A stretch of DNA of 64,000 bases from Candidatus Moraniibacteriota bacterium (GTDB taxonomy: Bacteria; Patescibacteriota; Minisyncoccia; Moranbacterales; UBA1568), in the NCBI GenBank assembly GCA_017983435.1, contig JAGOBM010000005.1, positions 28,469-92,468 of the forward strand, given 5' to 3'. The notes under the pieces were generated by a model, which searched no databases, was not told the origin of the DNA, and saw nothing but the letters and a program-made list of their open reading frames with translations. Each line of letters starts with the position of its first letter. Position 1 is the stretch's first letter. This document shows, piece after piece, positions 6,434-51,408 of the stretch. The position numbers and the translations under genes are program-made.

Positions 6434-6819
6434 CTTTTCTAAGACAGGTTGGATTGCCGCGCTTTGGAGCCTTTTTTGGCTTCTTTGTGAGGAAAGTCCG
6501 GACACTCCCCATCGCTTGCGATGGAAGGGTAATGGGTAACTCCCATACGCCGCGAGGCGCGAGGTGCGAACAGAAACGGCCGATTCCGAAAGGGATCGGA
6601 TATCCGGGTGCAAATCCGGATAAGCCTCTCTGGTAACAGGGAGGGTGAAACGGCTAAATCCTTACCTGAGTGCAAGGTCGAGCTCCCGTTCATATTGCAG
6701 CTGCGATTGAGTGGGAGAGAACCGCACGGATCTGGCTGGCAACAGTCAGGCAAGAGAAATGGCAATCGTCCCGCTTCGGCGGGATACAGAATCCGGCTTA
6801 TAGGCCTGTCTTAGAAAAG
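6434..6819 (+). ncRNA. rnpB: RNase P RNA (bacterial type A)
   Basis: Contains universally conserved GAGGAAAGTCCGGAC (P4), GGGTGAAACGG, and ACAGAATCCGGCTTATAGG (P4 3' strand, cf. E. coli ACAGAACCCGGCUUAUCGG); 15-bp P1 helix cttttctaagacagg / cctgtcttagaaaag closes the molecule; about 386 nt. Confidence 0.9.
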
Positions 6820-9891: not shown

Positions 9892-11007
9892 TTATTCGAG
9901 GATATAATCGAGGGTCTCTCGAGCGCAGGTGTCCCAGGAGAAGTGCGTCAGGCGAGCTCGGCCCTGCGTGATGAGCTCAGCCCTGCACGACGCATCGGTC
10001 CAGAGCTGGAGAAGCGCTTCAGCGATCCCTGCGGTGTCGAAGGCATCGGCATAGAGCGCGGCATCGCCGGCTACTTCGGGGAGGCTGGAGTTCCGAGCGG
10101 TCAGGACCGGTGTGCCAGAGGCGAAGGCTTCGAGAATCGGAATGCCAAAACCTTCGAAGAGTGACGGGAAGGCGAAAGTGCGGGCTCCCTGGTAGAGCGC
10201 CGGGAGATGATCAGATGGCACCTGACCGGTCAGAAAGATATCGTCGCGATATGGAGAATGTTCTCGGGCAGCGATGATCGGATCGGACAGCCAGGCACGC
10301 TCGCCGGCGAGTACGAGCTTGGCTTCGGGCGCGGAGGCTTTGAGTATCCCGAAGGCCTCGATGAGACGGATGAGATTCTTGCGCGGCTGCAGCGCGCCGA
10401 CGTAGAGGATATACTGCTGATCACGGAGTCCGTAGCTCGCTAGGATGCGGGTTTTTTCATCGACGCTGACGGTTATTCCGAAACGCTCCTGGGTGAAGCC
10501 ATGGTGGATCACGCGTATGTTCCGGTCATCGAGATTCGGAAAGGAAGCGAGGAGATCCTGTCGAGTCGCTTCAGAGACGGCGATGATCTTGTCAGCGCGA
10601 GCGACAGCGCGGTTCAAGAGGAAATCAAGCTTGAAGCGGGTTTTGGGTGTAAACGTCTCTGGATAGTGCCGCCAGGCGATATCGTGTACGGTGACGGTAA
10701 TCTCGGCCGAAGCGGGCAGAAATACCGGGACGGCTTGGACCGGGAAAAATATCTTCTCCGGCCGGGTACGAAACATTTCGAGAGCGAACCGGGTCTGCAT
10801 CCACTGGCTCGGGAACGGCAGAGCGGTTTCAGCGTAGTTGTCGAAATGCGGAGGAGTGAGCTCAGGATTGAAACGTGTTTTGTGATAGAGATGGAAAGCT
10901 GTTTCGGGAGCGAGCGTGCCGAAACGCTTGAGGAGCTCGAGGAGGTAGATACGGGTGCCATCAATGCGGGCGGCATCCAAATCAGCGGCTTGGAGGGCAA
11001 TCGTCAT
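9892..11007 (-). CDS. Glycosyltransferase family 1 (GT4)
   Basis: GT-B fold with C-terminal motif FPSLFEGFGIPILEAFASGTPVL. Start trimmed to Met at 11007 (MTIALQAADL...); the ORF-track N-terminal extension is R/P-rich and non-coding-like. Confidence 0.85.
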   Translation of the reverse strand: MTIALQAADLDAARIDGTRIYLLELLKRFGTLAPETAFHLYHKTRFNPELTPPHFDNYAETALPFPSQWMQTRFALEMFRTRPEKIFFPVQAVPVFLPASAEITVTVHDIAWRHYPETFTPKTRFKLDFLLNRAVARADKIIAVSEATRQDLLASFPNLDDRNIRVIHHGFTQERFGITVSVDEKTRILASYGLRDQQYILYVGALQPRKNLIRLIEAFGILKASAPEAKLVLAGERAWLSDPIIAAREHSPYRDDIFLTGQVPSDHLPALYQGARTFAFPSLFEGFGIPILEAFASGTPVLTARNSSLPEVAGDAALYADAFDTAGIAEALLQLWTDASCRAELITQGRARLTHFSWDTCARETLDYILE

Positions 11008-11021
11008 AAGAGCAGTCGGGA

Positions 11022-11432
11022 TTAGGCTTTGCGGAAGATCGCGAGACTCCCGACAATCGAGAGCGCTATCAGGATGCTGGCGGCGAGAGGGAATTTGAAG
11101 AGCGAGAGCGCGATGAGCGCGGCGCCCCAGCATCCGAGGAAAAACATGAGGACGAGAGAGCCGGCTTTGGAGAGCGGTGTGGTCTCTCTCTTCTGCGATA
11201 CGGACACGAATGTGTGGAGGGCGAAAGCTGCGAGGATGATACCGAAACACAGGGCGAGATTGATTCGGGCCGAGACGAAAGTCGGCAAGAGCATCTCTAT
11301 CGAGAGCAGGCAGGCAAAACCGAAGAGGGCTATCAGGAAGAATTCGGTGAAGAGTGCCCAGAGGACGGCTGACCCGGGAAGCCGTTTCAGGAGAGCGGAG
11401 ATATCGATGGAGAGAGGCAGATGGATACGCAT
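11022..11432 (-). CDS. Small membrane protein (4 TM), hypothetical
   Basis: 136-aa hydrophobic ORF immediately upstream of and co-directional with the GT4 gene. Confidence 0.5.
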   Translation of the reverse strand: MRIHLPLSIDISALLKRLPGSAVLWALFTEFFLIALFGFACLLSIEMLLPTFVSARINLALCFGIILAAFALHTFVSVSQKRETTPLSKAGSLVLMFFLGCWGAALIALSLFKFPLAASILIALSIVGSLAIFRKA

Positions 11433-11442
11433 AGGGGTTTGA

Positions 11443-12609
11443 TTATTCTCCGATACCGAAGCGGCTGAGAAGTCTGGTTTTGATCTGGCTTCCGAAGAGG
11501 CGGAAGTTGGCGCTGGTGCGGTCAGTAATCATCGAGACGGTGAGTGTATCGATATCGATAGGGGCTTCGCTCCGGAGGGCAAGCTGGAAGGCGCTGCCGG
11601 AGTCGGAAGAGAGGCTGCTCTCGGGGATATCGCAGGTATAGCGAGTGGCGCTCCACCAGACGGCGGTCGGGAGACAGGAGAGATTGATAGCTCGGGCATC
11701 GAATGAGGCTTCGATCGGATGTGTCGATGTGATGAGGAAATCACGGTATTCAGGCGATGTGATGGGTCTGAGGCGCTGGCCGTGCACGAGGAGATAGACG
11801 CCGCTGTCCGTGTCGCGGAAGACAGTGCCCTCCGATTGGGCCGCGCCGTAGAGGAGGATACGCCCGCGCTCGTAGATACCGACTTCTTCTTCGTGGGCTG
11901 GAATGACATCTTCAAAACGATAGCCCATGGAGAGGAATATCCCTGGGTCGCCGAATGGTCGGATCTCGTGCTCGCTCGTGACGAGGAAGATGCCATCGGC
12001 GAATGAAATGAGGCTGCCGACTCGGAAGCCGATCCATTCGTCAGAGACAGGGAGTGTCTCTGCGAGGCTCGCAGCGAGCGGCACAGCGAAGGACGCTGGG
12101 TAGCGGGAGAGATAGGCGCGGGTCGAGACGAAGCGTTTGAGTGACCCTCCATCCTGAGCATAATAGATACCTTCCTGATCCTGGTAGAGCAAGGGGTGTT
12201 CGAAGGAGGCGACCGGAGTATCATCGATCGGCAGGAAGAACGAGCGGTAGGAACGGGAAATCGATGCCTTGAGGCGGGCAGCTTCCCCGGATTTCTGGCT
12301 GAGATCGAAGGAGATGCGGATGCGTGAGAAGGTACCTGGACTGTCGAAATTGCCGATAAGCGTCTGGTCGGCAGCGATCTTGCCGTTCTGGAGCGGTGTC
12401 TGATCGGAGAGTTGTCGCGGATCGAGAAAAGTATTCTTCGTCGATTGCGGGGTGCGGAAATTGAATCCAAACGGCAAGGTGGGAAAGATGATACGGAGCG
12501 CGAAGAAAAGAGCGAGAGCGAGACAGAGAATATAGAGGACGACGCGGCTTATGAGGTAGCAGCGTCTCTCTTGCGGAGGGATGGGACAGAATGGTTCGGC
12601 GAAGGACAT
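11443..12609 (-). CDS. Membrane-anchored hypothetical protein
   Basis: 388 aa, single N-terminal TM, no recognisable domain; member of the minus-strand operon. Confidence 0.5.
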   Translation of the reverse strand: MSFAEPFCPIPPQERRCYLISRVVLYILCLALALFFALRIIFPTLPFGFNFRTPQSTKNTFLDPRQLSDQTPLQNGKIAADQTLIGNFDSPGTFSRIRISFDLSQKSGEAARLKASISRSYRSFFLPIDDTPVASFEHPLLYQDQEGIYYAQDGGSLKRFVSTRAYLSRYPASFAVPLAASLAETLPVSDEWIGFRVGSLISFADGIFLVTSEHEIRPFGDPGIFLSMGYRFEDVIPAHEEEVGIYERGRILLYGAAQSEGTVFRDTDSGVYLLVHGQRLRPITSPEYRDFLITSTHPIEASFDARAINLSCLPTAVWWSATRYTCDIPESSLSSDSGSAFQLALRSEAPIDIDTLTVSMITDRTSANFRLFGSQIKTRLLSRFGIGE

Positions 12610-12620
12610 GACGGTGATGA

Positions 12621-14438
12621 TTATTCTATTTCAAAGATGACCGCGCCGCTACCAAACGGTACTGATTCGAGCGAGAATCCGTATGAGTCGGCGGTCGGTG
12701 TCGGGTTGAGACCGATGGAACCGAAAGCGGCCGTGTGGCGAGCGGACAGCGTGTAGCCGCTGAGTGCCTGAGCCCATTGGGTCGCTTCGGTGGTGGGGAC
12801 AATCAGCCAGACATGCTCGTAGAGCGAGCGGTCGATCTTGCTGAGGTCGTCCGGGTTGAAAAAATACGCGGCGTTCTTGTGGTGGAGAGAGGCGAGCGGT
12901 CCGGCGATCATGGCGAATCCGGACCCGGTCGTCTCGCGGTCGACGAGGATGAGGTCTCTCGGTCCGAAGAAGTCTACGATCTCAGCGGTTTCTCTGAGCA
13001 GGCTGGTATTTTCTTGGGCCAAGAGACCTTGTTGCCACGCAGCGGTTTGAAACGCGAAGAGGCTGGCAAAAACGAGCGCGAGCACGAAGCGGCGTCGCGG
13101 GCTCTGGGGAAAACCGATCGGGAAATGCCGATTCTCGGCAAAGAGGATACTGATGCCGACGAGAGCCGAGAAGACGAGTGTCGGGTAGATGGTCGGGAGA
13201 TAGCGGCGGAGCATCCAAGGATGGTCGGGAGTGATGTTGGGGAACACAAGATAGGCGAATGTCGGCAGAGCGATCAGAAAAGGTACCAGGGCGGAATATT
13301 TACGATAGCGGAAAATGATGAAGATGCCGATGAGCCCGAGGATCACTATGAGGAGGAGTCCGTAGTTGATCAGTATCGGCAGGACGGGTAGCGCATCGAC
13401 GGTGGCTGAGGTGGTAGTCTCCGCAGCGCCGAAACTCGTGAGGAAATCGCGGAGGGCTTTGCCGATCATCGTGTAGAACGGAAGCGCATCGGAAAAGCTG
13501 GTACCGAATGTCAGGAGGAAGAGGAAGATCGGTGCGACGAGGCTCTTGACCGGGTAGAGTCGCCAGATCGAGCGAGCGTGGGCGCTCCCGGCGATAAGGA
13601 AGAGGGTGATCGGGAGGAGTAGAAATCCTTCGATACGTGTGAAGCAGAAGATGCCGGCCGCCGAGAGAGCCGCGGCGTAGTGGAGAAATTTCCCTTCGGC
13701 CCGGAAGCGGACGACGGAGAAGGCGAGGAAGATGAAGAGGAAGAGGGCGAGGTTTTCCGTCAGGGTGAATTTGGCAAACCAAGTCGGCAGGAAAGCGGCG
13801 CCGAGAGCCAGGGTGCCGAGAAAAGCGATGAAGCGGTGGAGGAAATTACGGAGGAGGAAATAGAAAGAGAAGAGCGAGAGGGTAAGAAGTACGGCATTGC
13901 CGATGGCGAGCCCATCGATCCGGAAGAGGGCGTAGAAGCTGGCCAGCCAGGCGGTGTAGGCGAGGGGGAACTGAGTCAGGAGCTCGCCGTGTCCGGTGTA
14001 GAAAAATCCGGGGAAATTGTAGGCGAGTCCGGGGCCGTATATCGAGAAGAAGGTATCGGCTGCCGGCAGAGAGAAGCGGAAGGCGTGATGCTCAGCGAGC
14101 GCGATGGCGGCTGTGGCGATGGAACCCTGGTCGCGGCCGGTGAAGACGGTCGGTTCGACAGGGAGCGTGCTCATGAGCGCGAGACCGAGCAGGATGAGGA
14201 GAAAGACTTTTTCTGGTAGATCGAGCAGCGCGAGCGTCTTGATGAGGAGGAAGAGTACAAGCGTGCTCATGAGGGAGAAGCCGAAAGCGATGAGCGGGAT
14301 GTAGAAGAATCCGCTGACTCCGAGCGCGAGCGCGAACCAGATAAAGACCAGTGCTGCGAGGCCGGTCAGGGTGAAGAAATTTTGCGCCTGATGGGTAGAG
14401 TGCTTCTGTTCCATAAATATATGTCTAGTGTACCGCAC
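12621..14438 (-). CDS. Polytopic membrane protein, possible GT-C-fold glycosyltransferase (ArnT/PMT-like)
   Basis: 605 aa with about 13 predicted TM helices and a C-terminal soluble domain; head of a minus-strand operon with GT4; the functional call is inference from architecture only. Confidence 0.4.
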   Translation of the reverse strand: MRYTRHIFMEQKHSTHQAQNFFTLTGLAALVFIWFALALGVSGFFYIPLIAFGFSLMSTLVLFLLIKTLALLDLPEKVFLLILLGLALMSTLPVEPTVFTGRDQGSIATAAIALAEHHAFRFSLPAADTFFSIYGPGLAYNFPGFFYTGHGELLTQFPLAYTAWLASFYALFRIDGLAIGNAVLLTLSLFSFYFLLRNFLHRFIAFLGTLALGAAFLPTWFAKFTLTENLALFLFIFLAFSVVRFRAEGKFLHYAAALSAAGIFCFTRIEGFLLLPITLFLIAGSAHARSIWRLYPVKSLVAPIFLFLLTFGTSFSDALPFYTMIGKALRDFLTSFGAAETTTSATVDALPVLPILINYGLLLIVILGLIGIFIIFRYRKYSALVPFLIALPTFAYLVFPNITPDHPWMLRRYLPTIYPTLVFSALVGISILFAENRHFPIGFPQSPRRRFVLALVFASLFAFQTAAWQQGLLAQENTSLLRETAEIVDFFGPRDLILVDRETTGSGFAMIAGPLASLHHKNAAYFFNPDDLSKIDRSLYEHVWLIVPTTEATQWAQALSGYTLSARHTAAFGSIGLNPTPTADSYGFSLESVPFGSGAVIFEIE

Positions 14439-38882: not shown

Positions 38883-39002
38883 AACAGTTCACAGTTAACA
38901 ATTAACAAAAAACAGTTGGCAAGAAGCGGGATTGGACAGATAGACATATTTTTTGTAGGATACCTCTTATCCATTGTTTGTCAGCTGAAAAGGTCGCAGA
39001 GT

Positions 39003-39023
39003 TCAGTTTCCGCCAGAGGCGGA
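39003..39023 (+). repeat. 21-bp direct repeat tcagtttccgccagaggcgga (copy 1, upstream of tRNA-Val); contains palindrome ccgccagaggcgg
   Basis: Identical 21-mer again at 39121-39141; inverted partial copy tccgcctctggcgga at 39219-39233. Confidence 0.8.
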
Positions 39024-39041
39024 TAAAGGTTAGAACAGAGA

Positions 39042-39115
39042 GGGCAACTAGCTCAGTTGGTTAGAGCACAGCATTCACATTGCTGGGGTCACTGGTTCGA
39101 ATCCAGTGTTGCCCA
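39042..39115 (+). tRNA. tRNA-Val (anticodon CAC)
   Basis: Manual cloverleaf: acceptor gggcaac/gttgccc, D-arm gctc-agttggttag-agc, anticodon stem cagca/tgctg with loop ttCACat, T-arm actgg-ttcgaat-ccagt; CCA not encoded. Confidence 0.85.
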
Positions 39116-39120
39116 CAACA

Positions 39121-39141
39121 TCAGTTTCCGCCAGAGGCGGA
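39121..39141 (+). repeat. 21-bp direct repeat copy 2, immediately downstream of tRNA-Val
   Basis: Exact match to 39003-39023. Confidence 0.8.
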
Positions 39142-39148
39142 CCCGCCT

Positions 39149-39253
39149 CGGGCGGGGGTTAGAGCACGGTATTCACACCTGCCCGACTCTGGAGGGTTGC
39201 TGGGGTCACTGGTTCCCTGTCCGCCTCTGGCGGAGAATCCAGTGTTGCCCACA
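39149..39253 (+). pseudogene. 5'-truncated degenerate tRNA-Val copy (D-loop to 3' end) with two insertions of about 20 nt
   Basis: ggttagagcac[g]g[t]attcaca + 20-nt insert + tgctggggtcactggtt + 21-nt insert (contains ccgcctctggcgg) + aatccagtgttgccca aligns to tRNA-Val positions 19-73; preceded by palindrome cccgcctcgggcggg. Confidence 0.6.
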
Positions 39254-39266
39254 GAAGTTTTCAATG

Positions 39267-39299
39267 AAGACGCTCCCGTTCCGGGGCGTCTTTGTTTGT
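39267..39299 (+). terminator. Intrinsic terminator (agacgctcccgttccggggcgtctttgtttg)
   Basis: GC stem followed by T-run, downstream of the tRNA-Val / pseudo-tRNA pair. Confidence 0.65.
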
Positions 39300-41953: not shown

Positions 41954-42008
41954 GAATACCTCCTATGGATTGGGAAGGGACAAAAAAGTGTTTGTATTTG
42001 CAATAGAG

Positions 42009-42081
42009 TGGGTGCGGAGGGGATCGAACCCACGACCGTTGGCTTAAAAGGCCACTGCTCTACCGACTGAGCTACGCACCC
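42009..42081 (-). tRNA. tRNA-Lys (anticodon UUU)
   Basis: Reverse complement folds as acceptor gggtgcg/cgcaccc, D-arm gctc-agtcggtag-agc, anticodon stem with loop cTTTTaa, T-arm gtggg-ttcgatc-ccctc (one U-U mismatch); CCA not encoded. Confidence 0.8.
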
Positions 42082-42137
42082 GAATGTGTTGGATCACTGA
42101 AATAACGATACTGACCGACTGCCAGCCCAAGGCTGGT

Positions 42138-42162
42138 CCGCCTCGGGCGGAAGCTACGCACC
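42138..42162 (-). repeat. Palindrome ccgcctcgggcgg abutting a 12-nt duplicate (agctacgcaccc) of the tRNA-Lys 5' end
   Basis: 12-mer identical to 42070-42081 (the tRNA 5' acceptor and D-stem start); the same palindrome occurs at 39145-39157 next to the truncated tRNA-Val copy. Confidence 0.7.
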
Positions 42163-42219
42163 CGTCTGTGTCAAAAACAAGAGAATTCTACCTGCTTTAG
42201 ACATATCCGTCAACAACAG

Positions 42220-49923: not shown

Positions 49924-51408
49924 ATGTCTTCATATCTCGTCAATACATTCCGTTCATCTTTCACGCCTGATATGCGTGCGTTTGCGGTGCTCTGTATCGC
50001 GTATGCGCTGTTCGGACTAGCTCGGATCGCGTTCGGATATGTGCCGGGCTTCCTGATTTTCTTGGCCCCGGTCTTCCTCATCGTGCCACTCGTCCGGCCC
50101 AAGGCCGGGCTGTGGGCGATCATCACTCTGACGATTCTGTTCGAGCGTTTCTTCACGTTGGAGCCGTTTCAGTTCGGTCGCTATGTGCTCAAGCTCTATC
50201 CGATCGATCTGGTCTTGCTTGGGGTGTTCGGAGGCGTGATCGCTTCTATCGTGTTTCGCCGGACAGCCGCGTATTTCGATCGGACGATCGGTATGCTCGG
50301 CGTATTCTTCGGTATCGCGAGCCTGTATCTCGCGGCGAGCTTCCTCGGGTTCGGTGATCGCGATCTCGCGGTCGCGGTGAGCACCTGGAAGAATTATGTC
50401 TTCTATGGACTCCTGGCCTGCGTGCTGCCGCAGCTCTTCATTTCGGAGCAAGATATCCGTCAGACGGTCCGGGTATTCTTGGTATCGGTGGCGGCCGCGC
50501 TCGTCTTCCTCCTGATCGGCATCCTCCGAGGCGGGGGGCTTTGGACGGAATTCACGCCGCTCTCGACCGGCGGGGTCCGGCTGCTCGCGTTTCCCCATGC
50601 TTTCTATTTCTCGATCGCTCTCCTCGCTCTCCTCGTGTCGAACGATTACTGGGATCCGTATAAGCGGAGCGGATTCGTCTGGATGCTGCTCGGATTGCTC
50701 GCATTCGGTATCCTGTCTTCGCTCATGCGGCATATCTGGATCGGCATGTTTGTGTCGCTCGCTTTCGCTTTTGTCTTCTTCATGCGGCACGAGGCTCGGC
50801 AGAAGATGGCGGCGCTCTCATTTGTCGCGCTCGGTATCGGGACGGCACTTTTCTCGGTAGCGCTCGTCTTCGCGACGCTCTTCCCGACGCTCGGTCCGAG
50901 CCAATCGATCCAGGCGATACAGGGGGTGGTAGCGGAGCGCTTGGTCTCTATCGGCAGCTCATCGGATACGAGTATTTCCTGGCGAGGGACGACGTGGAAG
51001 AGCGCGATCGATGAGATCGAGAAGCATCCGATCACCGGCGCCGGATTCGGCCGGCATGTCGCGGTGGAATCGGGCGACTATCATGACTTCGTCGAGGTGC
51101 GGAATATCCATAATTCTTGGCTGGCTGTATTCGTCCAGATGGGATTCATCGGCGGTCTCGCCTTCATTGGCGTTTTTGGAATCATCGCACTGTCTCTCAT
51201 TCGGCTGCCAGCCTATGGGACCTGGCAGTGTGCCTTCCGAGCGGCGCTGCTCGCTCTCCTCGCGTATGAGGCGCTCTTGATGCTCGCGCAGCCGTATCTC
51301 GAGACCAATCTGCTCAATGTCATCATCTGGATGACGATCGGATTCTCGATCGCACTCTGCCGGGTCACGCGGACAAATCCGACGATGGCCGCATCATCCG
51401 TCCGCTGA
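49924..51408 (+). CDS. O-antigen ligase / Wzy-type polymerase family membrane protein
   Basis: About 12 TM helices; Wzy_C-like periplasmic loop motif HNSWLAVFVQMGFIGGLAF typical of the O-antigen ligase (PF04932) family. Confidence 0.8.
   Translation: MSSYLVNTFRSSFTPDMRAFAVLCIAYALFGLARIAFGYVPGFLIFLAPVFLIVPLVRPKAGLWAIITLTILFERFFTLEPFQFGRYVLKLYPIDLVLLGVFGGVIASIVFRRTAAYFDRTIGMLGVFFGIASLYLAASFLGFGDRDLAVAVSTWKNYVFYGLLACVLPQLFISEQDIRQTVRVFLVSVAAALVFLLIGILRGGGLWTEFTPLSTGGVRLLAFPHAFYFSIALLALLVSNDYWDPYKRSGFVWMLLGLLAFGILSSLMRHIWIGMFVSLAFAFVFFMRHEARQKMAALSFVALGIGTALFSVALVFATLFPTLGPSQSIQAIQGVVAERLVSIGSSSDTSISWRGTTWKSAIDEIEKHPITGAGFGRHVAVESGDYHDFVEVRNIHNSWLAVFVQMGFIGGLAFIGVFGIIALSLIRLPAYGTWQCAFRAALLALLAYEALLMLAQPYLETNLLNVIIWMTIGFSIALCRVTRTNPTMAASSVR

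What the first reader, a model, noticed from the sequence alone, without database searches (positions are those of the whole stretch)
39003..39299. tRNA-Val bracketed by 21-bp direct repeats and followed by a 5'-truncated degenerate tRNA-Val copy with two insertions
The intact tRNA-Val (39042-39115) is flanked by identical 21-mers tcagtttccgccagaggcgga (39003-39023 and 39121-39141). Directly after the second repeat and a palindrome cccgcctcgggcggg comes a second tRNA-Val-derived segment (39149-39253) that starts at the D-loop (ggttagagcac...), has mutations in the anticodon stem, and carries two inserts of about 20 nt. The insert in the T-loop contains the reverse-oriented repeat core ccgcctctggcgg. 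A single terminator follows both. This looks like the scar of repeated insertion/excision of a small element, or a tandem duplication colonised by palindromic repeats, at a tRNA gene. No integrase is present, so the mechanism is unclear.
Basis: seen in the sequence. Interest (0 to 1): 0.65.

Follow-up and report, generated by a model that had tools for sequence, protein, structure and literature searches.

The report
Dead tRNA copies riddled with mini-hairpins
One working tRNA-Val gene of a Moranbacteria (CPR) genome sits between remnants of older tRNA-Val genes that carry tiny GC-rich hairpin insertion elements, a family that is widespread in these bacteria and elsewhere lies next to a small GIY-YIG nuclease gene at tRNA genes.

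Summary
tRNA-Val(CAC) is intact at 39042-39117, the 21-mer occurs twice exactly, and a 5'-truncated second copy carries two 19-nt inserts.

The bracketing reading is wrong. Each 21-mer is 6 nt of tRNA D-loop (TCAGTT) plus a 15-nt hairpin unit, sitting at the same D-loop site in two different dead tRNA-Val remnants. One remnant is an upstream 5' piece of another allele (38992-39036). The other is the downstream copy (39121-39253).

Removing a 30-nt double hairpin and two 19-nt single-hairpin elements from the downstream copy restores nt 12-76 of the tRNA at 63/65 identity. These are therefore clean insertions into the D-, anticodon- and T-loops.

tRNA-Lys, 3 kb away, has the same kind of fossil. 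Extra tRNA-Val fragments occur in 16 of 38 related Moranbacteria loci, with palindromic inserts in all 16 by inspection.

The double hairpin is widespread in CPR-like metagenome contigs. It inserts after TT(T), without target duplication, and often in frame within genes. In 8 of 8 loci sampled by protein homology it lies in a 5' tRNA-Ser fragment directly upstream of an 80-87-aa GIY-YIG nuclease gene, which is followed by the intact tRNA.

Best reading: this is a fossil of tRNA-gene disruption and replacement, with the nuclease gene absent here. I found no description of it in the literature I could search.

The parts
38933..38961 (+). Promoter-like site (TGGACA-17-TAGGAT) that would drive the whole tRNA-Val transcript
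   Evidence: Consensus scan. This is a match to a consensus only, not evidence of function.
38992..39008 (+). 5' remnant (nt 1-17, GGTCGCAgAGTTCAGTT) of a second, 'B-type' tRNA-Val(CAC) allele
   Evidence: 16/17 identical to the intact B-type gene of L004. The same remnant lies upstream of the intact gene in L003.
39009..39027 (+). Single-hairpin element (TCCGCCAGAGGCGGA plus decayed tail TAAA) inserted in the D-loop of the B-type remnant.
   Evidence: The orthologous copies are TCCGCCAAAGGCGGACAAG in L003 and TCCGCCAAAGGCGGACAGG in L017.
39028..39036 (+). Continuation of the B-type remnant after the hairpin (nt 18-26, GGTTAGAAC)
   Evidence: 9/9 identical to the B-type gene. Repeat D7.
39042..39117 (+). 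Intact tRNA-Val(CAC), A-type allele with acceptor stem GGGCAAC/GTTGCCC
   Evidence: ARAGORN. Rfam 69.6 bits.
39121..39126 (+). Start of the dead downstream copy A': D-loop nt 12-17 (TCAGTT). The acceptor 5' strand is missing.
39127..39156 (+). 30-nt double-hairpin element (TCCGCCagaGGCGGA + CCCGCCtcgGGCGGG) inserted in the D-loop of A' between nt 17 and 18
   Evidence: The same element sits at the same site in L004 and L023. The family is widespread in metagenomes.
39157..39177 (+). A' nt 18-38 (D-loop to anticodon loop), with 2 substitutions in the anticodon stem
   Evidence: (D2, 90%).
39178..39196 (+). 19-nt single-hairpin element E1 (CCTG+CCCGACtctGGAGGG), a decayed member of the CCTG+CCCGCCnnnGGAGGG subfamily, inserted in the anticodon loop
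   Evidence: The subfamily is seen in T-loops of L020, L028 and L031, and reverse-complemented in tRNA-Lys D-loops of L021, L027 and L029. L004's equivalent copy has an empty site here.
39197..39215 (+). A' nt 39-57 (anticodon stem 3' strand to the 5' half of the T-loop)
   Evidence: D3, 100%.
39216..39234 (+). 19-nt single-hairpin element E2 (CCTG+TCCGCCtctGGCGGA) inserted in the T-loop (GGTTC|..|GAATCC). It is the reverse complement of the D-loop unit.
   Evidence: (I1, I2). L004's equivalent copy has an empty site here.
39235..39253 (+). A' nt 58-76 (3' half of the T-loop, acceptor 3' strand, ACA)
   Evidence: D4, 100%.
39267..39299 (+). Terminator-like hairpin plus T-run that closes the transcription unit
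   Evidence: (I8).
42008..42081 (-). Intact tRNA-Lys(UUU)
42152..42163 (-). 5' remnant of tRNA-Lys (nt 1-12, GGGTGCGTAGCT) upstream of the intact gene
42122..42151 (-). 30-nt double-hairpin element (TCCGCCcgaGGCGGA + CCAGCCttgGGCTGG) inserted after nt 12 of the tRNA-Lys remnant
   Evidence: It occupies the same position (after nt 12) as in the tRNA-Ser/GIY-YIG cassettes.
42097..42121 (-). Decayed continuation of the tRNA-Lys remnant (CAGTCGGTcAGtAtcG...), followed by a short spacer and the intact gene
   Evidence: by inspection.

Best explanation
Window 38992-39253 holds one functional tRNA-Val(CAC) gene flanked by two dead tRNA-Val remnants.

- Upstream is the first 26 nt of a different allele.
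- Downstream is nt 12-76 of a recent copy of the working allele.
- All remnants carry members of one family of tiny GC-rich palindromic insertion elements. The basic unit is a 15-nt hairpin (6-bp stem, 3-nt loop). It occurs singly with a CAGG/CCTG tail (19 nt) or as a 30-nt double hairpin.
- The elements sit precisely in the D-, anticodon- and T-loop positions, in either orientation, without target duplication.
- The '21-bp direct repeat' is the same element at the same D-loop site of two different remnants.

**Shown.** The anatomy, the clean insertions, the recurrence at tRNA-Lys and in relatives, the wide distribution of the double hairpin with its TT(T) target preference, and its fixed place in the GIY-YIG/tRNA-Ser cassettes of other Patescibacteria.

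**Inferred, how it works.**
1. The hairpin elements are non-autonomous selfish DNA, mobilised in trans by a nuclease or transposase.
2. An insertion into a tRNA gene kills that copy.
3. Such a copy is seen only where a working allele sits next to it. That allele arrived either by capture of a foreign or duplicate allele (homology-facilitated illegitimate recombination anchored in lysS) or with a small GIY-YIG homing-type cassette that duplicates part of the tRNA.
4. The nuclease ORF has since been lost here, and the dead pieces are decaying by deletion.

The remnants themselves most likely have no function.
For: **Anatomy**
- Removing 30+19+19 nt from 39121-39253 restores 65 nt that match tRNA nt 12-76 at 63/65.
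- The upstream remnant matches the B-type allele at 16/17 and 9/9 on the two sides of its hairpin.

**Filled and empty sites**
- L004 and L023 have the same truncated copy with the D-loop double hairpin but without E1 and E2.
- L023's dead copy carries the acceptor of the working gene of L024 and L025, which resemble L023 in flanking sequence. This suggests a separate, more recent insertion at the same site.

**Specificity for tRNA loci**
- In the window, all 5 CCGCCNNNGGCGG palindromes lie at the two tRNA loci (0.17 expected).
- In 459 kb of Moranbacteria sequence, nearly all family hits lie in tRNA-Val or tRNA-Lys fragments.
- 16 of 38 loci have extra tRNA-Val fragments within 300 nt, against 13 of 1595 background windows.
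- tRNA-Lys shows the same fossil in the window and in L021, L027 and L029.

**Behaviour as a mobile element**
- The 5' flank is T/T/T at 54/80/67 of 88 low-GC copies.
- 44 of the 56 copies inside long ORFs lie in the two frames that read as small residues (SAxGGPAxGW and its reverse reading).
- Both orientations occur at one orthologous site, L263 against L266.
- Compensatory stem changes are seen in the Nomurabacteria variant.

**Link to a nuclease**
- A GIY-YIG ORF (PF01541, E about 1e-16) lies directly next to the double hairpin in 6 of the element-selected loci.
- All 8 loci sampled by protein homology alone have the layout: tRNA-Ser nt 1-12 | double hairpin | remnant - GIY-YIG - intact tRNA-Ser.
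- Those loci also hold nested old-allele halves and 3' copies with hairpins in the anticodon or T-loop.
Against: - No GIY-YIG ORF was found in the window or in any of the 49 Moranbacteria lysS loci (six-frame phmmer and HMM searches). The nuclease link for tRNA-Val and tRNA-Lys is therefore by analogy only.
- The enzyme that moves the hairpins is unknown.
- E1's flanks do not fit the TT(T) preference.
- The relation between the 19-nt single elements and the 30-nt double hairpin is inferred from shared stem sequences, not demonstrated.
- The order of events (insertion first or duplication first) cannot be told from the sequences.
- Conservation of the double hairpin in the cassettes, with compensatory changes, shows it is under selection there. 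'Pure junk' is therefore not the whole story.
- Taxonomic assignment of the metagenome contigs was not checked individually.
Confidence: 0.62

Rival explanations
1. Genomic-island scar. A tyrosine-integrase element integrated into tRNA-Val and restored the gene with its own 3' part. The displaced 3' fragment (39157-39253) remained as attR, and the island was later deleted.
For: The downstream segment duplicates the 3' part of the tRNA as a direct repeat. This is the hallmark of integration at tDNA (established knowledge; Islander paper PMC4383910 listed). In relatives, many 3' fragments start at the T-stem, a classic crossover site.
Against: - No integrase among the neighbouring genes.
- Only 3 nt separate the gene from the copy.
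- The copy starts in the D-loop, not at an anticodon-loop or T-loop crossover.
- 5' fragments of other alleles lie upstream of the intact genes. Integration at the 3' end does not produce these.
- The intact genes are not 5'/3' chimeras.
- The model does not explain the hairpin inserts or their presence inside protein-coding genes.
Confidence: 0.07
2. The second segment is a functional interrupted, split or permuted tRNA, or tRNA-like RNA. Its hairpin inserts would be removed or tolerated at the RNA level, like archaeal multi-intron or split tRNAs.
For: The inserts sit exactly in the three loops and leave the exon-like blocks almost unchanged (63/65). The region folds more stably than shuffles (z = -4.1). 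Patescibacteria do have unusual tRNA introns (PMC13011429).
Against: - nt 1-11, which include the 5' strand of the acceptor stem, are missing.
- No tRNA hit even at E<=10, and none from ARAGORN.
- The upstream 5' remnant belongs to another allele whose acceptor strand cannot pair with the 3' end of the copy.
- Equivalent copies in relatives are truncated at different points or have mismatched acceptor stems.
- The same elements occur in both orientations and in frame inside protein genes. This points to insertion at the DNA level.
- The known Patescibacteria tRNA introns are group I introns in the anticodon loop.
- I saw no bulge-helix-bulge motif by inspection.
Confidence: 0.04
3. The hairpins are ordinary REP- or PATE-type repeats moved by an HUH (RAYT or IS200/IS605 TnpA) enzyme. 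They accumulate in any neutral DNA. The tRNA remnants come from unrelated tandem duplication, so the two are only passively associated and no nuclease cassette is involved.
For: Palindromic units with a 4-nt tail (CAGG/CCTG) recall the GTAG/CGTC-tagged REPs (PMC3733652, listed). Insertion after a short T-rich target without target duplication is what IS200/IS605-type single-strand transposition gives (established knowledge).
Against: - In 64 kb, the family is found only at the two tRNA loci and in no other intergenic region.
- The tail is not GTAG or CGTC.
- The units are smaller than any described PATE.
- The only gene found repeatedly next to the double hairpin is a GIY-YIG nuclease. I did not run a search for HUH genes.
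- 42% of related loci carry tRNA-Val fragments. That is far more than passive duplication would predict in streamlined genomes.
Confidence: 0.2
4. Assembly artefact: short-read mis-assembly of a repeated tRNA region.
For: One independent assembly breaks inside the tRNA at 39078.
Against: The NCBI assembly is identical over 3 kb. Unique inserts bridge the repeated blocks. The same architecture recurs in many independent MAGs and metagenomes.
Confidence: 0.02

Closest known systems
Mitochondrial double-hairpin elements (Allomyces and other fungi) and yeast mitochondrial GC clusters
   Same: Very short GC-rich units that fold into one or two adjacent hairpins. They are scattered in a lower-GC genome, inserted in intergenic DNA and in structural-RNA genes, show presence/absence polymorphism, and have no coding capacity (papers listed, e.g. 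PMC4478555; otherwise my own knowledge).
   Different: The elements here are bacterial (Patescibacteria) and have no sequence relation to the mitochondrial ones. They are strongly tied to tRNA loops and to a GIY-YIG gene. They are 15, 19 or 30 nt long with a fixed 6-3-6 geometry.
Rickettsia palindromic elements (RPE)
   Same: Palindromic selfish repeats that are tolerated in frame inside protein-coding genes and also land in RNA genes. Here 44 of the 56 ORF-embedded copies lie in the two benign frames.
   Different: RPEs are about 100-150 bp and unrelated in sequence. They are not known to be associated with tRNA remnants or a GIY-YIG gene (my own knowledge).
REP/REPIN elements with RAYT, and IS200/IS605-derived PATEs
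   Same: Small hairpins with a short asymmetric tag, insertion without target duplication next to a short preferred sequence, and a single-copy nuclease gene flanked by the repeat.
   Different: The tag is CAGG/CCTG, not GTAG/CGTC. The distribution in the window is at tRNA loci rather than generally extragenic. The associated gene is GIY-YIG, not an HUH/Y1 enzyme. The units are far shorter than PATEs.
Free-standing GIY-YIG homing endonucleases (phage T4 Seg proteins; SegB lies in the tRNA gene region)
   Same: A small GIY-YIG ORF sits beside or within tRNA genes, with partial duplication of the target and apparent replacement of alleles (PMC13096335 listed).
   Different: The cassettes here are in cellular CPR genomes and none was found in IMG/VR. 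The proteins have only 80-87 aa and so no separate DNA-binding domain. The cassette always includes a double hairpin in the leftover 5' fragment. No ORF is present at the window's own loci.
Insertion sequences in CPR rRNA genes (PMC11270868)
   Same: In the same phylum, structural-RNA genes are interrupted at the tops or bases of stem-loops. Some of those inserts encode GIY-YIG proteins that are not in introns, and many are short and uncharacterised.
   Different: Those are in rRNA genes that remain functional. Here the hit copies are dead and sit next to a working copy. That paper does not mention tRNAs or hairpin elements.
Archaeal non-canonical tRNA introns and split tRNAs
   Same: Short inserts at D-loop, anticodon-loop and T-loop positions of tRNA genes, with related inserts at different positions.
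   Different: There is no complete exon set, no bulge-helix-bulge motif by inspection, both orientations occur, and the elements also occur in protein genes. The result is a pseudogene, not a spliced gene.

Membership tests
Functional tRNA (second segment 39121-39253) | Complete cloverleaf with a paired acceptor stem, scoring above the Rfam tRNA gathering threshold (29 bits) or called by ARAGORN | tested here: not met
   No ARAGORN call. No Rfam tRNA match even at E<=10. nt 1-11, which include the 5' strand of the acceptor stem, are absent.
Integrase-generated tDNA duplication (genomic-island scar) | Direct repeat of the 3' part of the tRNA gene | tested here: met
   Blocks D2-D4; 63/65 identity.
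Integrase-generated tDNA duplication (genomic-island scar) | Tyrosine integrase gene and island DNA between the intact gene and the displaced fragment | tested here: not met
   The gap is 3 nt. The neighbouring genes are PBP, GreA, LysRS, a hypothetical protein and SerRS. The hypothetical proteins have no Pfam hit.
REP / RAYT | 20-40 nt imperfect palindrome with a conserved GTAG or CGTC head | tested here: not met
   The units are palindromic, but the tag is CAGG/CCTG or absent.
REP / RAYT | High copy number spread over extragenic regions of the genome | tested here: not met
   In the 64-kb window, copies are found only at the two tRNA loci. The rest of the genome was not available.
REP / RAYT | RAYT (Y1 HUH) gene flanked by the repeats | not tested
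   I did not search for HUH genes. The gene found next to the repeat elsewhere is GIY-YIG.
IS200/IS605-type PATE | Insertion 3' of a short conserved target, without target-site duplication | tested here: met
   The 5' flank is T/T/T in 54/80/67 of 88 copies. Excision in silico is clean.
IS200/IS605-type PATE | Left and right ends with subterminal hairpins plus guide sequences (about 100 nt or more), and a cognate TnpA | tested here: inconclusive
   Two hairpins are present, but the whole unit is only 30 nt. I did not search for TnpA.
Free-standing GIY-YIG homing cassette at a tRNA gene | GIY-YIG ORF adjacent to the tRNA and its partial duplicate | tested here: not met
   Absent from the window and from L003-L051. 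Present in 8 of 8 protein-sampled CPR loci at tRNA-Ser, and in element-selected loci at tRNA-Asn, tRNA-Leu and tRNA-Ser.
Free-standing GIY-YIG homing cassette at a tRNA gene | Layout: 5' tRNA fragment with double hairpin after about nt 12, then spacer, then the intact tRNA | tested here: met
   Window tRNA-Lys: GGGTGCGTAGCT | double hairpin | CAGTCGGT.., then spacer and the intact gene. Compare L263, L266, L267 and L272.
Free-standing GIY-YIG homing cassette at a tRNA gene | Site-specific cleavage of the cassette-free tRNA allele by the encoded nuclease | not testable with these tools
   Needs biochemistry.
Archaeal-type tRNA introns / split tRNA | Bulge-helix-bulge motif at each junction, and exons that together give a full tRNA | tested here: not met
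   The exon-like blocks give only nt 12-76. No BHB motif by inspection. The upstream 5' remnant has a non-matching acceptor strand.
Mitochondrial-type double-hairpin mobile element (works-like comparison) | Two adjacent short hairpins, presence/absence polymorphism, multiple genomic contexts | tested here: met
   There is no sequence homology, so this is an analogy and not membership.

The most novel reading that the evidence does not exclude
The 30-nt double hairpin may be the non-autonomous partner of the 80-87-aa GIY-YIG nuclease that always lies beside it at tRNA-Ser genes. That would make a REP/RAYT-like or homing system built on a GIY-YIG enzyme. In this reading the system attacks the loops of tRNA genes throughout Patescibacteria. 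It would drive continual replacement of tRNA alleles by resistant variants, such as the A, B and C types of tRNA-Val, and leave hairpin-marked tRNA fossils like those in this window.
Probability: 0.3. Interest if true: 0.85.

Novelty: new variant of a known kind. Interest (0 to 1): 0.66.

Why it matters
- **Annotation.** Patescibacteria (CPR) have some of the smallest bacterial genomes, yet about 40% of the related loci examined carry dead tRNA-Val pieces. Something is actively breaking and replacing tRNA genes in these organisms. Recognising the hairpin units explains odd 'repeats' and false or missed tRNA calls in CPR annotation. For example, ARAGORN calls a chimeric 'tRNA-Val' in L004 that scores only 32.6 bits in Rfam.
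- **Protein insertions.** The same units explain 10-residue SAxGGPAxGW-type insertions in CPR proteins such as DnaJ.
- **A possible new mobile system.** If the GIY-YIG link holds, this would be a new kind of minimal mobile system, with an element of 30 nt and a nuclease of about 85 aa. It would also be a new source of selection on tRNA sequences.
- **Testable.** The nuclease is small and its putative DNA partner is defined, so the idea can be tested directly by biochemistry.

Tried and rejected
**Searches that gave nothing useful**
- Viral-contig scans with the single-hairpin patterns CCTGCCCGCCNNNGGAGGG and TCCGCCNNNGGCGGACAGG returned almost only chance hits in high-GC phages.
- Searching IMG/VR with the GIY-YIG alignment found nothing.
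- Six-frame phmmer and HMM searches for GIY-YIG in the window and in the 49 lysS loci found nothing.
- Nine literature searches found no description of these hairpins or of a GIY-YIG/tRNA cassette in CPR. The group I intron paper (PMC13011429) and the rRNA-insertion paper (PMC11270868) cover other things.
- Aligning L023 with L024 and L025 to find exact recombination junctions failed, because the flanks are too diverged.

**Ideas tested and set aside**
- Elements insert at the centre of palindromes or hairpin loops in general. Flank complementarity is only weakly enriched (2.12 against 1.67), driven by a few high-GC contigs.
- The palindrome at 50094 belongs to the family. It lies in coding sequence and looks like chance.
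- CRISPR-like array. The spacing and the tandem arrays do not fit.
- Palindromic transposon-excision footprints. The hairpins are unrelated to their flanks.
- Uptake signal sequences. The elements are clean 15-30-nt insertions, not motifs built up by substitution.

**Loci without a detected tRNA-Val**
- I checked whether these hide a sole interrupted copy. They do not; the gene is simply elsewhere.
Full report
**1. The observation**

- ARAGORN finds tRNA-Val(cac) at 39042-39116 and tRNA-Lys(ttt) at 42008-42081 on the minus strand. Rfam agrees, at 69.6 and 69.3 bits.
- The 21-mer TCAGTTTCCGCCAGAGGCGGA occurs exactly twice, at 39003 and 39121. No copy was found in 100 shuffles, even allowing three mismatches.
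- The repeat finder recovers three blocks of the tRNA downstream: 39157-77 (90%), 39197-215 (100%) and 39235-53 (100%). It also finds the inverted copy of the repeat core in the T-loop insert.
- CCGCCNNNGGCGG occurs five times in 64 kb against 0.17 expected. All five copies are at the two tRNA loci.
- The second segment is not called as a tRNA by ARAGORN, nor by Rfam at E<=10.
- The NCBI assembly of the same organism (GCA_020051655.1) is identical over 3 kb. A Logan assembly agrees until its contig ends inside the repeat.

**2. Re-reading the anatomy**

The organism is a Candidatus Moranbacteria/Moraniibacteriota (Patescibacteria, CPR) MAG. The order greA-lysS-tRNA-Val(CAC)-...-serS-...-tRNA-Lys is conserved in relatives.

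Comparison with those relatives changes the reading of the 21-mer. TCAGTT is nt 12-17 of a tRNA-Val D-loop (AGyTCAGTT|GGTTAGA), and the remaining 15 nt are a hairpin inserted there.

*Upstream of the intact gene.* 38992-39036 reads GGTCGCAgAGTTCAGTT | TCCGCCAGAGGCGGAtaaa | GGTTAGAAC.
- This is the first 26 nt of a second tRNA-Val(CAC) allele, which I call B-type. It is intact in L004 and many other genomes.
- The match is 16/17 and 9/9 on the two sides of the hairpin.
- The closest relative, L003, has the orthologous remnant with the orthologous hairpin.

*Downstream of the intact gene.* 39121-39253 is TCAGTT | 30-nt double hairpin | 21 nt | 19-nt element E1 | 19 nt | 19-nt element E2 | 19 nt.
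- Deleting the three inserts gives 65 nt that equal nt 12-76 of the intact gene at 63/65 positions.
- E1 (CCTG+CCCGACtctGGAGGG) and E2 (CCTG+TCCGCCtctGGCGGA) belong to one family, and E2 is the reverse complement of the D-loop unit.

The 'bracket' is therefore the same element at the same D-loop site in two different dead tRNA-Val remnants. It is not a duplication made around the live gene.

**3. The pattern is not a one-off**

*tRNA-Lys in the same window.* Reading the minus strand upstream of tRNA-Lys gives GGGTGCGTAGCT (nt 1-12), then TCCGCCcgaGGCGGA CCAGCCttgGGCTGG, then CAGTCGGTcAGtAtcG..., about 30 nt of spacer, and the intact gene.

*tRNA-Val in relatives.*
- Among 38 Moranbacteria loci with a tRNA-Val, 16 carry further tRNA-Val fragments within 300 nt. 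Only 13 of 1595 background windows do.
- By inspection, all 16 carry GC-rich palindromic inserts in D-, anticodon- or T-loop positions.
- At least three allele types (A, B, C), with several acceptor-stem variants, replace one another.
- Fragments of one type often flank an intact gene of another. Examples are A5'-[B]-A3' in L020, L028 and L031, and B5'-[A]-B3' in L003.
- In L027, an intact gene sits inside a 13-bp inverted repeat that splits the D-loop of another copy.
- L004 and L023 hold the same 5'-truncated A-type copy with the double hairpin at the same D-loop site, but without E1 and E2. These are empty sites for the window's two 19-nt inserts.
- L023's dead copy carries the acceptor of the working gene in L024 and L025, which resemble L023 in flanking sequence. 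The D-loop site therefore seems to have been hit more than once.

*tRNA-Lys in relatives.* Fossils with the 19-nt unit after nt 12 occur in L021, L027 and L029.

*Specificity.* In 459 kb of these loci, hits to the hairpin family are almost confined to tRNA-Val and tRNA-Lys fragments. In the loci that lack a called tRNA-Val, the gene is simply elsewhere. I found no case of a sole, interrupted copy.

**4. The hairpin family at large**

Most contigs have low GC and come from groundwater and sediment projects of the kind rich in CPR bacteria. I did not check the taxonomy of individual contigs.

In the 88 low-GC copies:
- The three bases before the element are T in 54, 80 and 67 cases. The second base after it is A in 64.
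- Loop 1 is mostly nnA and loop 2 mostly Tnn.
- Of the 56 copies inside long ORFs, 44 lie in the two frames that read as small residues (SAxGGPAxGW and its reverse reading). Several are in the G/F region of DnaJ.

Other contexts:
- Copies occur in tRNA loops. L242 has one in a T-loop, and L164 has one in the anticodon loop of each of two dead tRNA-Leu copies beside the live gene. There are also tandem arrays.
- In some high-GC contigs the element sits in the loop of a longer inverted repeat. Flank complementarity is only weakly enriched overall.

Taken together, the family shows clean insertion, a target preference, no target duplication, both orientations and tolerance in benign reading frames. 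These are the marks of a small non-autonomous mobile element. The nearest analogues are mitochondrial double-hairpin elements and GC clusters, Rickettsia palindromic elements, and REP/PATE elements.

**5. A nuclease next to the hairpins**

*Element-selected loci.* In six of the loci found through the double hairpin, a small ORF starts 16-31 nt after the element. It is a GIY-YIG nuclease (PF01541, E about 1e-16). The layout is: 5' fragment of tRNA-X with the double hairpin in its D-loop or anticodon region, then GIY-YIG, then intact tRNA-X. X is Asn, Leu or Ser.

*Protein-selected loci.* These six loci had been chosen through the hairpin, so I resampled through the protein alone.
- The family has 522 hits at E<1e-5. 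All the hits that carry a source name come from Patescibacteria lineages.
- All eight distinct loci fetched show tRNA-Ser nt 1-12 | double hairpin | decayed nt 13-22 - ATG...stop - intact tRNA-Ser. They come from Moran-, Veblen-, Magasanik- and Nomurabacteria.
- Two orthologous Moranbacteria loci have the element at the same site in opposite orientations.
- The Nomurabacteria variant keeps both hairpins through compensatory changes.
- The same loci contain old-allele halves nested around the live gene. They also contain 3' copies with a double hairpin in the anticodon or T-loop. This is exactly the kind of debris seen at the window's tRNA-Val.

*Where the nuclease is absent.* No such ORF exists in the window or in the 49 lysS loci, and none was found in IMG/VR.

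**6. Explanation**

*Shown.*
- The locus is one live tRNA-Val gene plus two dead remnants carrying four insertions of one hairpin family, five hairpin units in all.
- The same holds for tRNA-Lys.
- The family is widespread and behaves like a mobile element.
- Elsewhere in the phylum it is a fixed part of a GIY-YIG/tRNA cassette.

*Inferred.*
- An insertion into a tRNA loop kills that copy.
- Such copies are seen only beside a working allele. That allele may have been captured from foreign or sister DNA. One route is homology-facilitated illegitimate recombination anchored in lysS, which would explain downstream copies truncated at their 5' end. Another is arrival with a GIY-YIG cassette that duplicates part of the target.
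- The nuclease ORF has been lost here, and the remnants decay.

*Open.* The role of the double hairpin in the cassette is unknown. It could be the nuclease's recognition site, a disruptor of the leftover target that gives immunity, or a 5' hairpin of the nuclease mRNA.

I give 0.62 to this composite. That breaks down as about 0.85 for 'dead copies colonised by mobile mini-hairpins' and about 0.4-0.45 for a GIY-YIG origin of the Val and Lys fossils.

**7. Rivals**

- *Integrase scar.* No integrase, a 3-nt gap, 5' fragments upstream, and the hairpins left unexplained.
- *Functional interrupted or split tRNA.* nt 1-11, which include the 5' strand of the acceptor stem, are missing. There is no covariance-model hit, both orientations occur, and the elements also sit in protein genes.
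- *Plain REP/PATE repeats with passive accumulation.* This remains possible for the mobilising enzyme. It does not explain the restriction to tRNA loci in the window or the GIY-YIG association.
- *Assembly artefact.* Excluded by independent assemblies and by the many relatives.

**8. Novelty and verdict**

Nine full-text searches found no description of these elements or of the GIY-YIG/tRNA cassette.

The nearest published items are:
- group I introns in Patescibacteria tRNAs (PMC13011429);
- insertions in CPR rRNA genes, some encoding non-intron GIY-YIG proteins and mostly at stem-loops (PMC11270868).

Absence from an open-access library is not proof of novelty.

I rate the finding as a new variant of a known kind: small palindromic mobile elements and free-standing homing nucleases. 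The local feature itself is non-functional debris. Its value is as a pointer to a phylum-wide process. Interest: 0.66.

Noticed in passing
window 42082-42163 (- strand): The second tRNA of the window, tRNA-Lys(UUU), has its own upstream fossil. It consists of nt 1-12, a 30-nt double hairpin, a decayed D-arm and anticodon region, a short spacer and then the intact gene.
   Followed up: yes
L263, L266, L267, L268-L274 (and L143, L145, L169, L212, L221, L247): A conserved cassette across Patescibacteria: a 5' tRNA fragment carrying a double hairpin, then an 80-87-aa GIY-YIG nuclease ORF, then the intact tRNA (Ser, Asn or Leu). Orthologous loci L263 and L266 carry the hairpin element in opposite orientations.
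   Followed up: partly
L180, L206 (three copies), L210, L216, L158: The 30-nt double hairpin lies in frame inside the Gly/Phe-rich region of DnaJ-like genes, adding SAxGGPAxGW-type decapeptides. This resembles the in-frame insertions of Rickettsia palindromic elements.
   Followed up: partly
L052/L056 5071-5100 and L053 4944-4973 (IMG/VR contigs): The double hairpin also occurs in predicted viral contigs of about 52% GC. In L052 it appears in frame near the N-terminus of a signal-peptide-like ORF. In L053 it lies just upstream of an ORF, in AT-rich intergenic sequence.
   Followed up: no
L004 5618-5649 and 5798-5829: The same 32-nt perfect palindrome (CCCGCCCGAACGTACCGTTCGGTACGGGCGGG) sits between GGTTA and GAGCAC of the D-loop in two tRNA-Val copies, in opposite orientations. 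ARAGORN calls one of them a tRNA using part of the palindrome, and it scores only 32.6 bits in Rfam.
   Followed up: partly
L027 5470-5600: An intact tRNA-Val lies inside a 13-bp inverted repeat (CCCCGTTACAACT / AGTTGTAACGGGG) that itself splits the D-loop of another tRNA-Val copy. L026 and L030 have the same stem with only a short loop in place of the tRNA.
   Followed up: no
L027 8580-8615, compared with L017, L031 and L050 downstream of tRNA-Lys: A 15-nt unit (CCCGCCTTCGGAGGG) is inserted in the loop of a conserved hairpin (GAAGCCAAct..gcTTGGCTTC). That hairpin begins a conserved, apparently structured region downstream of tRNA-Lys. No Rfam family matched it at gathering threshold.
   Followed up: no
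L159, L162, L188, L208, L215, L171, L172, L236, L252 (GC 0.66-0.70): In high-GC, probably non-CPR contigs, the same double hairpin sits in the loop of 8-10-bp inverted repeats that are themselves repeated (for example ..GGCGGAGCT[element]gAAGCTCCGCCCCTACG). The element family may therefore reach beyond Patescibacteria.
   Followed up: no
L173 and L262: Tandem arrays of the double hairpin separated by short repeated spacers (7 nt, GACATTT, in L262).
   Followed up: no
L247 3320-3590 (- strand): Downstream of the intact tRNA-Ser(gct) lies a T-loop-like GGTTCGAA, about 110 nt of structured-looking sequence and the tRNA 3' end. A second GIY-YIG ORF and another copy of the 3' end follow.
   Followed up: no
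window 6441-6816: RNase P RNA class A, at a modest score of 134.8 bits. I did not check it for hairpin insertions.
   Followed up: no
window 10001-14000: Unusually strong positive GC skew (0.23-0.29) and AT skew compared with the rest of the window.
   Followed up: no
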